Shown here one piece after another: positions 52,422-57,496 of a stretch of 64,000 nt of DNA. The translations under genes were made by a program, and so were the position numbers. The notes below the pieces were generated by a model. That model was given only the letters and a program-made list of their open reading frames with translations. It was not told the origin of the DNA and did not search any database. Source of the stretch: Patescibacteria group bacterium (GTDB lineage: Bacteria > Patescibacteriota > WWE3 > UBA101185 > UBA10185); assembly GCA_026004595.1 (NCBI GenBank), contig BPJL01000007.1, positions 12,460 through 76,459 on the forward strand, given 5' to 3'. The number at the start of each line of letters is the position of its first letter. Position 1 is the stretch's first letter.

Positions 52422-54845
52422 ATGACTTCACAATATGAGAAACTGTTCATCAATATCCCCCAGGGTAAAATTAGATATTCCATTGTTAATCTTCCTGTAC
52501 CAAAAAGACTGATGGTTGCCAAGGCTGAAAAGAAAAACAGAATAGAACACTATGACCCGTCTAGTGGGACGGTTGATAGTCTGGTCTTTGGGACTACGGT
52601 CGATGAGTTCGACTGTGATACCTGTAAACTAAACAGGCTATGGTGCCCGGGACACCTTGGTTACATAGACCTTTCAAAGTTCCCGGTTATAAACCCAAAA
52701 CTTAGAAAAAAGTTGGCCAAAATACTTAACTGTTTCTGTGTTGAAACCGGCGAACCAAAGTTTGATACCAACCGCTACAACCTGTTTTTGCATCTAAAGT
52801 TTCTTAACGAAAAGTATAAGGGTGCTAAGTGTCACGAGGGCCACGAAAGAGTCATTTTTGTTGTTACCAAACAGAATAGAAAGAACGTTATTTTTAAATA
52901 TGTTGGAAAAAACACTGAAAAGGTTTCAGTTTCACCAATGGAAATCATAAAGTACCTTGATAGAATAGACAGCAGATACAAAATCAAGCCGTTGAACAGG
53001 GCTCTTGTTATAAAGAGATTACCAGTTATTCCTCCTTGTGTTCGCTACTACGGTGTCTTTAACGGTGATAAAAAAATTGCTCATCCAATAACAAGACATT
53101 ACAACGGAATACTCCAGAGAATAGAAAGGCTAAAGTCAAGTCGTGTTGACAGGGAATCAAACGCAAGAAATGACATATTTTCTCTTGTATCAGAGCTTTT
53201 TAACGAGATAGAGAATGAACTAAAAAACAAAAAGGGATACATAAGAGCATCAGTCATGGGTAAAAGGGTAAACTTTAGTGGCAGAACAGTGCTCGGTCCC
53301 TATAACAGGTTAGACTTTGGAATGATAATGATACCAAAGCTAATGAAGTACGTTCATACGATTCCAATAACGGTTACAACTTTTAATCAGAATGTTATGA
53401 GAGAGTTTCTCAGAAGAAGAATGGTAAAAACTGTTATTCTTGGTGACAGACAGGTGTTAAAGGGTGTTACAATAAAGCCCGATAGCAACTATACACCGTT
53501 ACCCGGAGACGTGCTTGAAATTTATGGTAGACAGGGAGACGAGGTGATTTTTAACCGTCAACCAACCCTTGATAAGCAGTCCATTATGGGTTATAGAGTA
53601 CAGTACCTTGATGACTACTACTGCTTTGGTCTTCACTCTTCTTACACTACACCTCATAACGCTGATTTTGACGGCGACGAGGGTAACCTGCATAAGATTC
53701 AAAACGTTGAAGCCCGTGCTGAAGTGAGACACATTGTTTCCGTTGAAAACTGTCTTATGAACCCAAAGACTAACCGTCCAGCTTTCGGACTAGTTTACAA
53801 CTGCATTTCAGCCGGTTATCTGATATCAGAAGCAGAAATTGATAAAAAGTGGTTTATAAGTTTAGCAGAAAAACTGGGGTTACTTGAGGATAAAAGACTA
53901 AATAGATGGTTAGAAGAGAAAAGAAAGTTAACCGGAAAGGAACTTTTCAGTCTCTGTTTACCAGACGACTTTAACTATAGCAACAGATCAGTAGTGATAA
54001 TAAACGGTGTTTTTACGTCTGGTAGACTAACCTCATCACACTTAGCCCCAACGGAACACTCAATTTTGCATCGTATCTATAAAACACGCGGAAAAAAAGA
54101 TGCTGTTAGGTTTCTTACCCTTGGGCAACGTATACTAGACGAGTTTCTTGGATACTATGGTCTTTCGATAGGCATTTCCAGTCTGGTGCCAAAGAAACTT
54201 AGTATAATCAAGAAGCTTGTTGAGAACGTGATTCAGAAAACCATATTTAATATAAAGGCTATACCAGAGGGGTCTATAAACAGAGAGAACAAAATCTGTA
54301 ACGCGCTTAACACAGTTACAAGAATAGGAATACAGATAAGCAAAAACGTACTTAAACCAGAAAACCCTCTTAACGTAATGTCACTCTCGGGCGCGAAGGG
54401 AAAAGAAGCAAACACTGCTCAAATAATTGGAAGTCTGGGTCAACAGTACATTTTTGGATCAAGACCGGAGAAGACGTTAACACTAAAAACAAGGTGCCTT
54501 CCGTACTTTGAACCGAACAGCCCTGATCACGACATAGAATCAAGGGGCTTTGTAAAAGAGTCGTTTATGGAAGGAGCTGACCCTCCAGGGTTTATCTTTC
54601 ACATGATGGCTTCAAGGGTTGGTCTTATCGACTCAGCGATAAAGACTGGAGACATTGGCTACTCTCACAGAAAGCTTGTTAAGTCGTTAGAAAACCTTGT
54701 GCTTGAATACGACGGAACAGTGAGGGATAACAGAGGTAACATTTTCAATTTCTCATATACAGACGGGTTCTACGCTGGAGAGCTGTTAACCGTTAGCAGC
54801 GCACAGTTAACAACACTCTGTTTTGTTTACCCGAAAGAATTTTGA
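52422..54845 (+). CDS. RPB1: RNA polymerase largest subunit, N-terminal portion (A'-like: clamp/zinc, active site, bridge helix), paralog 1
   Basis: Zinc motif '[20 protein letters not shown]', '[20 protein letters not shown]', catalytic '[17 protein letters not shown]', bridge-helix region '[53 protein letters not shown]'. It ends just after the bridge helix. Confidence 0.85.
   Translation: [807 protein letters not shown]

Positions 54846-57496: not shown

What the first reader, a model, noticed from the sequence alone, without database searches (positions are those of the whole stretch)
53500..56620. Two intact, adjacent paralogs of the RPB1 catalytic (N-terminal) module sharing a ~96-nt perfectly identical tract: gene conversion or two polymerase flavours
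Paralog 1 and paralog 2 are only ~60% identical over most of their length. A ~100-aa block around the active site, '[63 protein letters not shown][V/I][16 protein letters not shown]', is ≥95% identical. At the DNA level 53545-53640 and 56363-56458 are identical base-for-base across ~32 codons, synonymous positions included, and the flanks differ mainly at synonymous sites. That points to a recent gene-conversion patch between the two copies, or to very strong constraint. Both copies keep every catalytic and zinc ligand. The virus may therefore assemble two alternative RNAP cores, for example stage-specific ones. I do not recall this being described for giant-virus RNAPs.
Basis: seen in the sequence. 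Interest (0 to 1): 0.75.

Follow-up and report, generated by a model that had tools for sequence, protein, structure and literature searches.

The report
Two RNA-polymerase half-genes sharing a converted core
A giant-virus-like contig carries two old, differently built copies of the front half of its RNA polymerase's largest subunit, and DNA copying between them keeps their catalytic centre nearly identical, a pairing that also appears to exist in related viruses and suggests two polymerase forms built on one shared core.

Summary
Two intact + strand genes, par1 (52422-54845) and par2 (55109-57496), each encode the N-terminal half of RPB1. They are 51% identical overall and 42-45% outside one tract. 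That tract (53535-53777 = 56339-56581) is 228/243 nt and 79/80 aa identical, with a perfect 92-nt run at 53574-53665 = 56378-56469.

Synonymous divergence is 0.30 in the tract and saturated elsewhere. Orthologs show no such synonymous conservation. This is gene conversion, not constraint.

The copies are not recent duplicates. Their clamp domains fall into two old clades, A (par2) and B (par1). Each B protein in metagenomes has one A partner. The three pairs I could check come from the same sample, on contigs with matching composition.

The clamp is never homogenised. The catalytic two-thirds is homogenised within each genome, repeatedly. The tract is the youngest layer.

Both copies have been under purifying selection since the conversion. 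I saw one C-terminal half gene. Two polymerase forms sharing one catalytic core is the best reading, but expression is untested.

This is a new variant of known kinds: RNAP-subunit paralogy and concerted evolution.

The parts
52422..54845 (+). par1: B-type gene for the N-terminal half of RPB1 (807 aa; GenBank GIW70096.1)
   Evidence: ORF. Pfam Rpb1 domains 1-5N. In the domain-1 tree it sits in clade B (bootstrap 99) and shares the B-specific insertion and loss of the rudder motif. Accession.
55109..57496 (+). par2: A-type (canonical) gene for the N-terminal half of RPB1 (795 aa; GenBank GIW70098.1)
   Evidence: ORF. Pfam. Clade A in the domain-1 tree (bootstrap 83). Aligns contiguously to archaeal Rpo1N and yeast Rpb1 from residue ~16.
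52422..53534 (+). par1 type-specific N-terminal module (clamp and dock, aa 1-371), not homogenised
   Evidence: 22-35% aa identity to par2, pS 0.73, dN 0.77. Residues ~119-259 cannot be aligned to solved Rpb1 chains by phmmer. The AF2 model keeps a helical hairpin at 222-268 but shows no rudder loop.
55109..56338 (+). par2 type-specific N-terminal module (clamp and dock, aa 1-410)
   Evidence: Carries the A-type motifs CNxCG...RC...CxPNP and DNxDxxYTRSxEEP (rudder region), which are conserved in all A proteins.
53535..53777 (+). Youngest conversion tract, copy in par1 (active-site double-psi beta-barrel with NADFDGD)
   Evidence: 228/243 nt identical to 56339-56581, with an abrupt 5' edge. dS 0.30, dN 0.013.
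56339..56581 (+). Youngest conversion tract, copy in par2
   Evidence: Same evidence as for the par1 copy.
53574..53665 (+). Perfect 92-nt identity run in par1 (partner 56378-56469)
   Evidence: A 30-codon difference-free run inside the tract has permutation p = 0.011. This suggests a nested, more recent event or a local constraint.
56378..56469 (+). Perfect 92-nt identity run in par2
54384..54680 (+). Older homogenised segment in par1 (funnel to bridge helix; partner ~57074-57364)
   Evidence: aa identity 70-87%, nt 72-77%, pS 0.62 (dS 1.3) against saturation in the flanks. For domains 3-5 as a whole, par1 and par2 are sisters with 100% bootstrap.
57074..57364 (+). Older homogenised segment in par2
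45532..47370 (+). Gene for the C-terminal half of RPB1 (612 aa; GIW70093.1), the presumed shared partner of both N-halves
   Evidence: Pfam Rpb1_5 positions 67-265. It is the only C-half found in the window by tblastn. That both N-halves share it is an inference.
54846..55108 (.). 263-nt spacer between the paralogs, holding a small hydrophobic antisense ORF (54858-55076, minus strand, 72 aa)
   Evidence: The GenBank accession numbers skip one (GIW70097) between par1 and par2. Each paralog has its own A/T-rich upstream region containing a TATAC element.

Best explanation
Par1 and par2 are an ancient paralog pair encoding the N-terminal half (Rpo1N/A'-like) of the largest RNA-polymerase subunit. 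The host is a pithovirus-like giant virus whose RPB1 is split after the bridge helix.

The two types differ in the clamp module:
- The A type (par2) is canonical and slowly evolving.
- The B type (par1) has a fast-evolving clamp. It carries a B-specific insertion, an altered second zinc site, and no rudder motif.

From the active-site barrel onward, the two genes are repeatedly homogenised within each genome by ectopic gene conversion. The 243-nt tract at 53535/56339 is the most recent such event here. Conversion stops abruptly at the edge of the type-specific module, so that module stays distinct.

Shown:
- The conversion itself.
- The mosaic phylogeny.
- Co-divergence of A and B across lineages.
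- Purifying selection on both copies since the conversion.

Inferred:
- Both N-halves assemble with the same C-terminal half and RPB2. This would give two polymerase forms with the same catalytic centre but different clamp surfaces, meaning different factor or promoter-class specificity.
- Homogenisation persists because conserved sequence both permits recombination and must stay co-adapted to shared partner subunits.
For: Conversion:
- dS is 0.30 in the tract (0.24 in its core) against saturation outside. dN is 0.013 against 0.5-0.8.
- Synonymous codon identity is 65/77 in the tract against 127/277 outside, p = 5e-10.
- Orthologs share only ~40% identical codons with the window copies there.
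- The 5' boundary is abrupt: 36/100 identical, then 228/243.

Ancient paralogy:
- Par1's best database hit is P0026, not par2.
- In the domain-1 tree, clade A has bootstrap 83 and clade B 99, and no within-genome pair is sister.
- B-specific indels and motifs are shared by par1.

Co-residence in relatives:
- Partners were predicted from tract similarity alone.
- All three pairs I could check came from the same sample: ERZ28615055, JGI 3300039191 and SRR14234068.
- Their contigs are each other's best tetranucleotide match, r = 0.93-0.98.
- A-A and B-B distances correlate. Mantel r = 0.98 for everything outside the tract and 0.83 for domain 1 alone. In both cases only 1 of 5040 permutations reaches this value.

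Recurrent homogenisation:
- In the tract tree and the domains 3-5 tree, clades A and B have 0 support and within-genome pairs are sisters. Support is 100 for par1/par2 in both trees. Other pairs reach up to 88 in the tract tree and up to 83 in the domains 3-5 tree.
- Within-genome A-B identity exceeds between-genome A-A identity in every domain from the tract onward, but not in domain 1 or the N-part of domain 2.
- P0002 and P0026 share a 64-nt perfect run although they lie on separate contigs.

Both copies functional:
- There are 2.5 non-synonymous differences since the conversion. About 24 would be expected if one copy were evolving neutrally (P ~ 1e-7).
- B proteins keep as many conserved columns as A proteins outside the clamp: 113 vs 115 in domains 3-5.
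Against: - There are no expression, proteomic or assembly data, so 'two polymerase forms' is an inference.
- Trees are neighbour-joining on simple distances. No maximum-likelihood or topology tests were possible.
- Co-residence in relatives rests on shared sample and composition, not on a single contig. No related contig shows both genes, and they are at least 10 kb apart there.
- In the other pairs dS in the tract is near saturation (pS 0.63-0.87). There, within-genome amino-acid similarity could partly reflect parallel selection by shared partner subunits.
- Par1's second zinc site is non-canonical, and par1 is the shortest B protein.
- Upstream regions do not show distinct promoter classes.
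- A second C-terminal half could lie outside the window.
Confidence: 0.75

Rival explanations
1. There is no DNA exchange. The block is identical because the active site is under extreme purifying selection, possibly with codon bias or a nucleotide-level element such as an RNA structure or an antisense gene.
For: The tract is the most conserved part of the protein in all homologs, at 60-80% aa identity even between distant relatives. Stop-free antisense stretches overlap the tract in both copies.
Against: - Synonymous sites are also nearly identical, with dS 0.30 against saturation.
- Orthologs with the same protein constraint share only ~40% identical codons with the window copies.
- The RNA fold z-score is -1.0.
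- Antisense open stretches vary in position and length among relatives, from 48 to 109 codons.
- No Rfam family was found.
Confidence: 0.03
2. This is a recent tandem duplication in this virus. Par1 then diverged very fast everywhere except the catalytic block, and there is no ancient two-type system.
For: The genes are adjacent only in this genome. For domains 3-5, par1 and par2 are sisters with 100% bootstrap. Par1 sits on a long branch.
Against: - Par1's clamp shares derived indels and motifs with 11 other B proteins from other samples.
- Clade B has bootstrap 99 in the domain-1 tree.
- Par1's best hit is P0026, not par2.
- B proteins pair one-to-one with A proteins from the same samples.
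- A and B clamps co-diverge.
Confidence: 0.05
3. The B type is a xenolog. It was acquired from a different virus lineage rather than duplicated in place, and afterwards partly overwritten by conversion from the resident gene.
For: The B clamp is only ~25% identical to the A clamp. Mosaic genes are what acquisition followed by conversion would also produce.
Against: A and B clamps co-diverge across 7 lineages. Any acquisition must therefore predate their common ancestor, at which point it is operationally the same as an ancient paralog. No donor lineage with a B-like clamp alone was found. A B-motif DNA scan of IMG/VR gave 0 hits.
Confidence: 0.12
4. Par1 is a decaying or redundant copy with no function of its own, and conversion merely delays its loss.
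For: Par1 has a non-canonical second zinc site, is the shortest B protein, and has a poorly conserved clamp. B keeps 44 conserved columns in domain 1 against 109 for A.
Against: - The ORF is intact and 807 codons long.
- dN/dS is ~0.04 since the conversion. One-copy neutrality is rejected at P ~ 1e-7.
- B-type genes are retained as full ORFs in at least 12 lineages, with catalytic-part conservation equal to A.
- The AF2 model folds the N-terminal module with a clamp-like helical hairpin.
Confidence: 0.07
5. This is an assembly artefact: a chimeric or duplicated contig, or two strains collapsed at the tract.
For: The contig comes from a metagenome bin mislabelled as Patescibacteria. The full-length proteins are on record from one assembly only.
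Against: - The copies are 42-45% identical outside the tract, so this is not a collapsed or duplicated repeat.
- The tract has 15 scattered, mostly synonymous differences rather than perfect identity.
- Both ORFs are in frame across both tract borders.
- The A/B pairing recurs in independent assemblies from other samples.
Confidence: 0.03

Closest known systems
RNAP large-subunit paralogs in Mimiviridae-related viruses (two Rpb2 in PgV, OLPV1 and OLPV2; two Rpb1 in AaV; PMC6031395)
   Same: One giant-virus genome carries two diverged copies of a catalytic RNAP subunit. For Rpb2, each copy forms its own clade, which implies one old duplication.
   Different: - Here only the N-terminal half of a split RPB1 is duplicated.
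- The two types are distinct only in the clamp module.
- The rest is homogenised within genomes.
- No gene conversion or mosaic phylogeny was reported for those cases in the text I read.
[quoted passage not shown]
   Same: The lineage is probably related. It has a split RPB1 and large non-coding tandem arrays, and the nearest named C-half is from an 855-kb 'uncultured virus' contig.
   Different: Those papers give one sentence only. I could not tell whether the two genes are the N and C halves or an A/B pair, and I could not fetch those genomes with the tools available.
Plant Pol IV/Pol V (NRPD1/NRPE1), and eukaryotic Pol I/II/III in general: alternative largest subunits on partly shared subunit sets (PMC2834690, PMC10533338)
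   Same: Paralogous largest subunits give functionally different polymerases that share other subunits. This is the working analogy for 'two flavours'.
   Different: In those systems whole largest subunits diverged, including catalytic regions, and are not kept identical by conversion. Here the catalytic barrel is kept the same and only the clamp differs. Function here is inferred, not shown.
Archaeal Rpo1N/Rpo1C (A'/A'') split of the largest subunit
   Same: The break is at the same place, just after the bridge helix. Par2 residue 779 aligns to residue 874 of the 910-residue P. furiosus Rpo1N chain. All close relatives end at the same point.
   Different: The genes are not adjacent in N-then-C order. 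The C half lies 5 kb upstream, and the N half is duplicated. Whether the split has an archaeal origin or arose independently was not tested.
Long-lasting concerted evolution with islands of divergence between paralogs (e.g. prokaryotic gene pairs, PMC6053082; GOT1 in Tigriopus, PMC3728101; mammalian pairs, PMC2720389)
   Same: Paralogs within a genome are more alike than orthologs across genomes in converted segments. A segment that resists conversion marks the part under selection for a distinct function.
   Different: I found no previous example in a viral RNA polymerase. Here the unconverted island is a whole structural module, the clamp, of a multisubunit enzyme.
[quoted passage not shown]
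   Same: RPB1 appears as separate N- and C-terminal ORFs.
   Different: No group I intron or any other Rfam family was found in the window. The C half lies upstream of the N halves, so simple cis-splicing cannot join them.

Membership tests
Multisubunit RNAP largest subunit, N-terminal half (Rpb1 domains 1-5N; Rpo1N/A'-like) | Pfam Rpb1 domains 1, 2, 3 and 4 and the start of domain 5, all above gathering score | tested here: met
   Both ORFs match all five models above the cut-offs. The best solved relatives are archaeal Rpo1N and eukaryotic RPB1, at E = 1e-90 for par2 and 6e-80 for par1.
Multisubunit RNAP largest subunit, N-terminal half (Rpb1 domains 1-5N; Rpo1N/A'-like) | Catalytic NADFDGD aspartate triad | tested here: met
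   Present at par2 residue 452 and par1 residue 413, and invariant in the 20- and 29-sequence alignments.
Multisubunit RNAP largest subunit, N-terminal half (Rpb1 domains 1-5N; Rpo1N/A'-like) | First clamp zinc site CxxCx6CxxH | tested here: met
   Par2 has C60, C63, C70 and H73. Par1 has C65, C68, C75 and H78.
Multisubunit RNAP largest subunit, N-terminal half (Rpb1 domains 1-5N; Rpo1N/A'-like) | Second clamp zinc site with four Cys (CxxC ... C ... C) | tested here: not met
   Met in par2 (C100, C103, C140, C154). Not met in par1, which has C104-x-C106 ... C137-H138-x2-H141. Other B proteins have CxxC ... HxxC. Whether par1 still binds zinc cannot be told from sequence.
Multisubunit RNAP largest subunit, N-terminal half (Rpb1 domains 1-5N; Rpo1N/A'-like) | Rudder loop and flanking motif between the clamp coiled-coil and GKRV(D/N)F | tested here: not met
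   Par2 and all A proteins carry DNxDxxYTRSx(D/E)EP. Par1 and all B proteins lack it. The par1 model runs from helix 242-268 straight into the KGxIR segment. This is a difference of the B type, not grounds for excluding it from the family.
Interlocus gene conversion / concerted evolution | Local collapse of synonymous divergence between paralogs relative to the rest of the genes | tested here: met
   dS is 0.30 in the tract against saturation outside. Fisher p = 5e-10.
Interlocus gene conversion / concerted evolution | In the segment, paralogs within a genome are closer than orthologs between genomes, with phylogenetic incongruence between segments | tested here: met
   The partitioned trees disagree. 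Domain 1 gives clades A (83) and B (99). The tract and domains 3-5 give within-genome sister pairs and 0 support for A or B.
Interlocus gene conversion / concerted evolution | The pattern is not explained by shared protein constraint or codon usage | tested here: met
   In the control, the window copies share only 13-26 of ~47-59 identical codons with six orthologs in the same tract.
Interlocus gene conversion / concerted evolution | DNA-level signature in the other genome pairs as well | tested here: inconclusive
   P0002/P0026 have a 64-nt perfect run and ~70% synonymous identity in the tract. P0005/P0036 and P0004/P0089 have near-saturated pS. There, old conversion and parallel selection cannot be separated.
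Conserved A/B paralog pair co-inherited in one genome | Both types on one DNA molecule | tested here: met
   Met for the window, where the genes are adjacent. For relatives the evidence is only same sample plus matching tetranucleotide composition. No related contig carries both.
Conserved A/B paralog pair co-inherited in one genome | The two types co-diverge | tested here: met
   Mantel r = 0.83 on domain 1 alone. Only 1 of 5040 permutations reaches this value.
Nucleocytoviricota (giant virus) origin of the contig | Hallmark genes and nearest relatives in giant-virus genomes | tested here: inconclusive
   Present: RPB1 halves, Rpb5, TFIIS, topoisomerase II, XRN, NUDIX and a DEAD-box helicase. 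RPB1 homologs occur in GVMAG contigs. The nearest named C-half is from an 'uncultured virus' 855-kb contig. No major capsid protein, PolB, A32 or VLTF3 was found among the window ORFs scanned. The record itself is labelled Patescibacteria.
Intron- or intein-split RPB1 | A group I intron between adjacent N and C ORFs, or an intein within the ORF | tested here: not met
   No Rfam match in the window. The C half lies 5 kb upstream. There is no intein domain in par1 or par2. The relative P0120 does carry an intein-length insertion in the bridge helix.

The most novel reading that the evidence does not exclude
A whole lineage of pithovirus-like giant viruses may build two RNA polymerases from one catalytic kit. 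In this reading, one C-terminal half, one RPB2 and one active-site barrel are shared, and the barrel is kept identical by recurrent gene conversion. What differs is the clamp module. One is canonical. The other is fast-evolving and rudder-less, with an altered zinc site. The two forms would recognise different initiation or elongation factors and so different gene classes or infection stages. Alternatively, the B clamp may be evolving fast under an arms race with a host or virophage factor. Conversion would then be the mechanism that keeps both N-halves co-adapted to their shared partners.
Probability: 0.4. Interest if true: 0.8.

Novelty: new variant of a known kind. Interest (0 to 1): 0.62.

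Why it matters
A recent preprint (10.1101/2023.07.11.548585) states that giant viruses carry a single copy of each of the two largest RNA-polymerase subunits, and these genes are used as single-copy phylogenetic markers. There are three consequences.

1. A conserved pair of alternative clamp-bearing halves on one catalytic core would be a compact viral counterpart of the eukaryotic and plant habit of making specialised polymerases from paralogous largest subunits. The hypothesis is concrete and testable if a cultured relative carries the pair. One would look for stage-specific or factor-specific polymerase forms.

2. The mosaic history means RPB1 trees for this clade depend on which part of the gene is used. 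Metagenomic bins with 'two RPB1' may be wrongly judged as contaminated or mixed.

3. The case shows which part of the enzyme tolerates divergence (the clamp, never converted) and which part must stay matched to shared partners (the active-site barrel through the bridge helix, converted repeatedly).

Tried and rejected
- **RNA structure in the tract.** The fold z-score is -1.0, so I rejected it.
- **Antisense gene.** Stop-free antisense stretches exist, but their position and length vary among relatives. I judged them a by-product.
- **Rfam and tRNA scans of the window.** Nothing was found, so there is no group I intron.
- **Degenerate third RPB1 copy or second C-half in the window.** None was found by tblastn at E < 1.
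- **Promoter classes.** Most genes have A-rich sequence before the ATG, and both paralogs have a TATAC element upstream. I saw no basis for assigning different classes. The sigma-70 and terminator scan was at background level.
- **Homing-endonuclease or intein trigger.**
  - An HNH gene lies 2.3 kb downstream, but no HNH gene is seen near the relatives' copies.
  - The one mapped intein-length insertion (P0120) sits in the bridge helix, not in the tract. This remains untested.
- **Finding contigs with both types.**
  - None of the 93 loci held at that point has two active-site hits.
  - The IMG/VR profile scan returned only relatives at 37% identity or less.
  - A B-motif DNA scan of IMG/VR gave 0 hits.
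- **Exact look-ups of window proteins.** Three look-ups failed, so I could not read the remaining 15 kb of the 79-kb contig.
- **One or two C-terminal halves per genome.**
  - The word-based search was too insensitive.
  - The full HMMER search gave about 10 close C-half lineages with no obvious two-clade split.
  - Without sample information this is only weak support for a single C-half.
- **Organism names.** None were obtainable for the close relatives.
- **Direction of conversion.** It cannot be inferred, because the tract carries no type-specific signal.

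
Full report
**1. What is at the coordinates**

The region holds two intact ORFs on the + strand. Par1 is 52422-54845 (807 aa) and par2 is 55109-57496 (795 aa). They are separated by 263 nt. That spacer contains a small hydrophobic antisense ORF at 54858-55076.

Both proteins match Pfam Rpb1 domains 1-4 and the first ~64 positions of domain 5. 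They therefore end just after the bridge helix. The rest of domain 5 is encoded by a separate gene 5 kb upstream on the same strand (45532-47370).

The break is at the same place as the archaeal Rpo1N/Rpo1C split. All close relatives share it.

The contig is deposited as a Patescibacteria MAG (KatS3mg101, 79,304 bp). Par1 is GIW70096.1, par2 is GIW70098.1 and the C-half is GIW70093.1. Its gene content looks like a giant virus:
- topoisomerase II, XRN, TFIIS, Rpb5, NUDIX, a caspase-like protease and DUF285 repeat proteins;
- RPB1 homologs in GVMAG contigs.

**2. Checking the observation**

Global amino-acid identity between par1 and par2 is 51%. Outside one block it is 42-45%.

The block starts abruptly:
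- The 100 nt before it are 36/100 identical.
- 53535-53777 vs 56339-56581 are 228/243 identical, and 79/80 aa.
- The perfect run is 92 nt, 53574-53665 = 56378-56469.

The correct partner of 53545-53640 is 56349-56444, at 93/96.

Nei-Gojobori estimates for the tract are dS 0.30 (0.24 in the core) and dN 0.013. The 5' part has pS 0.73 and dN 0.77. Downstream, synonymous sites are saturated.

Among conserved residues with degenerate codons, 65/77 use the same codon in the tract, against 127/277 elsewhere (p = 5e-10).

As a control for protein constraint and codon usage, I compared the tract with six orthologs whose DNA I could fetch. The window copies share only 13-26 of ~47-59 such codons with them. 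The synonymous identity is therefore specific to the within-genome pair.

An RNA fold of the tract is unremarkable (z = -1.0). Antisense open stretches are not conserved in position. Rfam finds nothing.

I conclude that this is gene conversion, not constraint. It is not very recent, because dS of ~0.3 has accumulated since. The 30-codon difference-free run inside the tract is longer than expected (permutation p = 0.011). That may mark a nested younger event.

The claim about zinc ligands is only partly right. Both copies have NADFDGD and the first zinc site. Par1's second site is non-canonical.

**3. The copies are not recent duplicates**

Par1's best database hit is not par2. It is P0026. Par2's best hits are a different set, P0002-P0014.

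Alignment of the N-terminal ~300 residues shows two sharply different types:
- **A type** (par2 and 11+ others) has CNxCG...RC...CxPNPxYFP and the motif DNxDxxYTRSxDEP in the rudder region.
- **B type** (par1 and 11 others) has an 8-11-residue insertion (xYDPxxGTIDD), FCxxCG...HxxC instead of four cysteines, and no rudder motif.

In a neighbour-joining tree of domain 1, clade A has 83% bootstrap and clade B 99%.

A has 109 well-conserved columns in domain 1 and B has 44. In domains 3-5 they have 115 and 113. So only the B clamp evolves fast.

Phmmer aligns par2 to yeast Rpb1 from residue 16. It cannot align par1 residues ~119-259. An AlphaFold2 model of par1 (mean pLDDT 71) still shows a long helical hairpin at 222-268, the position of the clamp coiled-coil. 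That hairpin runs directly into the KGxIR...GKRVNF segment.

**4. The same pair seems to exist in related viruses**

For every B protein, one A protein stands out as unusually similar in the tract only. The figures are tract / outside identity:

| B protein | A partner | Tract / outside (%) |
|---|---|---|
| par1 | par2 | 97 / 41 |
| P0026 | P0002 | 89 / 46 |
| P0022 | P0010 | 92 / 39 |
| P0036 | P0005 | 85 / 44 |
| P0089 | P0004 | 83 / 40 |
| P0069 | P0007 | 88 / 49 |
| P0121 | P0013 | 77 / 36 |

I used these predictions to ask where the proteins come from. All three pairs I could check share a sample:
- P0002 and P0026 in ERZ28615055;
- P0004 and P0089 in JGI 3300039191;
- P0005 and P0036 in SRR14234068.

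Their contigs are each other's best tetranucleotide match (r = 0.93-0.98).

With this pairing, A-A and B-B distances are almost perfectly correlated. Mantel r is 0.98 for everything outside the tract and 0.83 for domain 1 alone. In both cases only the true pairing out of 5040 permutations reaches this value.

In these relatives the two genes are not adjacent. No held locus has two active-site hits, and the flanks cover up to 10 kb. The tandem arrangement is so far unique to the window.

**5. Mosaic history**

Partitioned trees disagree strongly:
- In the tract, and separately in domains 3-5 with the tract excluded, clades A and B have 0% support.
- Within-genome pairs become sisters. Par1/par2 has 100% in both partitions. 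P0010/P0022 has 88% and P0004/P0089 78% in the tract. P0004/P0089 has 83% and P0007/P0069 65% in domains 3-5.
- The domains 3-5 tree follows genome lineages, and A and B separate within each lineage.

Per-domain identities say the same:
- In domain 1, A-B identity is ~25% both within genomes (0.26) and between genomes (0.25).
- From the tract onward, within-genome A-B identity exceeds even between-genome A-A identity: 0.88 vs 0.76 in the tract, 0.55 vs 0.50 in pore 1, 0.60 vs 0.53 in the funnel, and 0.73 vs 0.59 in the bridge helix.

P0002 and P0026 share a 64-nt perfect run and 23/25 identical codons in a different place (AYFEPNSDDIEADGF...), although they lie on separate contigs. In the other two pairs synonymous sites in the tract are near saturation. 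For those pairs, old conversion and parallel selection cannot be told apart.

In the window, a second segment (54384-54680 and ~57074-57364) has intermediate divergence (dS 1.3).

The picture is a type-specific clamp (and partly dock) module that is never overwritten, attached to a catalytic body that is overwritten repeatedly. The active-site barrel is the most frequently and most recently converted part. The abrupt 5' edge of the tract falls within the 3' part of Pfam domain 2, where conserved sequence resumes after the type-specific N-terminal part.

**6. Are both copies in use?**

Since the conversion, 12.5 synonymous but only 2.5 non-synonymous differences have accumulated. If one copy were evolving neutrally, about 24 non-synonymous differences would be expected (Poisson P ~ 1e-7).

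Both ORFs are intact. B-type genes are kept as full ORFs in at least 12 lineages. These facts argue against a pseudogene.

I could not test transcription or translation. Each gene has its own A/T-rich upstream region with a TATAC element, and I could not assign different promoter classes.

**7. How it most likely works**

Shown:
- ectopic gene conversion between two old paralogs;
- long-term retention and co-divergence of both types;
- constraint on both copies.

Inferred:
- Each N-half assembles with the single C-half seen in the window and with RPB2. This would give two polymerases with one catalytic centre and two clamp surfaces.
- From established knowledge of Pol II and archaeal RNAP, the clamp coiled-coil, rudder, lid and dock are the contact sites for TFIIB/TFB, TFIIE/TFE and Spt5, and for the upstream edge of the DNA-RNA hybrid. 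A different clamp therefore most plausibly means different factor or promoter-class specificity.
- Conversion persists in the catalytic part because conserved sequence keeps enough identity for recombination, and because both halves must fit the same partners.
- Conversions that run into the clamp would erase the distinction and are presumably selected against.

The tandem position in this genome should raise the conversion rate. This fits the fact that this pair has the most recent tract.

**8. Comparison with what is known**

- A recent preprint states that giant viruses have single copies of the two largest subunits (10.1101/2023.07.11.548585).
- Exceptions are published: Rpb2 paralogs in PgV and OLPV, and an Rpb1 pair in AaV (PMC6031395), and RNAPS paralogs (PMC8575486, PMC13524828).
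- 'Two distinct RPB1' are mentioned in one sentence each for Pithovirus, Cedratvirus and Orpheovirus (PMC5127014, PMC5786535). I could not determine whether those are N and C halves or an A/B pair.
- Duplicated core genes in pithovirus-like bins were earlier read as bin heterogeneity (PMC6401483).
- Marseilleviridae RPB1 is split by a group I intron (PMC5413956). That is not the case here.
- Long-lasting concerted evolution with unconverted islands is well known in cells (PMC6053082, PMC3728101, PMC2720389).
- I found no report of such a mosaic in a viral RNA polymerase. The library does not hold most papers from subscription journals.

**9. Limits**

- Trees are neighbour-joining with simple distance corrections. 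No maximum-likelihood tool was available.
- Co-residence in relatives is inferred from shared sample and composition.
- The close relatives are absent from IMG/VR, and the one metagenome scan was truncated.
- The other 15 kb of the contig could not be read.
- Whether there is a second C-half or a second RPB2 elsewhere in the genome is unknown. The ~10 close C-half lineages show no two-clade split, which is weak evidence for one per genome.

**10. Verdict**

Gene conversion is demonstrated. The larger finding is an ancient, conserved A/B pair of RPB1 N-halves with module-specific concerted evolution.

This is a new variant of known kinds. Its interest is moderate to high because it yields a concrete and testable two-polymerase hypothesis, and because it affects the use of RPB1 as a phylogenetic marker.

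Noticed in passing
window 2013-5237, 23349-25882, 47444-49901: There are three large non-coding tandem arrays of a ~277-289-bp unit: 11.2, 9.1 and 8.6 copies at 81-91% matches. They have low GC and no ORF of 90 aa or more. Arrays 1 and 3 look like the same unit in opposite orientation. Array 3 lies between the RPB1 C-half gene and the par1 block. From memory, this resembles the non-coding repeat arrays of Pithovirus.
   Followed up: partly
window 45532-47370 with 52422-57496: RPB1 is split right after the bridge helix, at the archaeal Rpo1N/Rpo1C position. The C-terminal half gene lies 5 kb upstream of the N-halves on the same strand. All close relatives end at the same point and have no adjacent C-half. 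More distant GVMAG homologs have a contiguous full-length gene.
   Followed up: partly
window 54858-55076 (minus strand): A 72-aa, very hydrophobic ORF lies antisense in the spacer between the two paralogs. The GenBank accession numbers skip one (GIW70097) between them. I did not test whether it is a real gene.
   Followed up: no
window 34652-36742 and 36883-39801: Two adjacent giant DUF285-repeat proteins are built from 72-nt repeat units. They have nearly identical ~45-nt upstream regions (GGCAAATGATTGTTTTT...AAGACAAGCCAAAAAAATG). This is a second tandem paralog pair in the window.
   Followed up: no
window 59775-60581 (minus strand): A free-standing HNH endonuclease gene lies 2.3 kb downstream of par2, next to the TFIIS and XRN genes. 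It could supply double-strand breaks that start conversion. No HNH gene was seen near the relatives' copies, and this was not tested.
   Followed up: no
whole window (GenBank proteins GIW70093.1-GIW70098.1, KatS3mg101): The contig is deposited as a Patescibacteria MAG, and par1 is annotated as 'RNA polymerase subunit A''. The gene content is giant-virus-like, so this is probably a mis-binned viral contig.
   Followed up: partly
protein P0120 (and P0049), relatives of par2: P0120 carries an intein-length insertion (323 aa; Pfam intein domain on record) in the bridge helix, after the residue aligned to par2 K740 (...AIK | TADIG...). P0049 also has the intein domain on record, but there the insertions map to its C-terminal end. 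This is a mobile element in the same gene family, outside the conversion tract.
   Followed up: partly
window 57483-57496: The 3' end of par2 overlaps the 3' end of the convergent XRN exonuclease gene (57483-59102, minus strand) by 14 nt. Par1's start is only 21 nt from the divergent gene 51603-52400. The packing is very tight.
   Followed up: no
protein P0198 (Logan contig, 5,065 bp): An independently assembled public contig encodes a C-half that is 100% identical to the window's over 604 aa. The same virus was therefore sampled in at least one other assembly or run.
   Followed up: no
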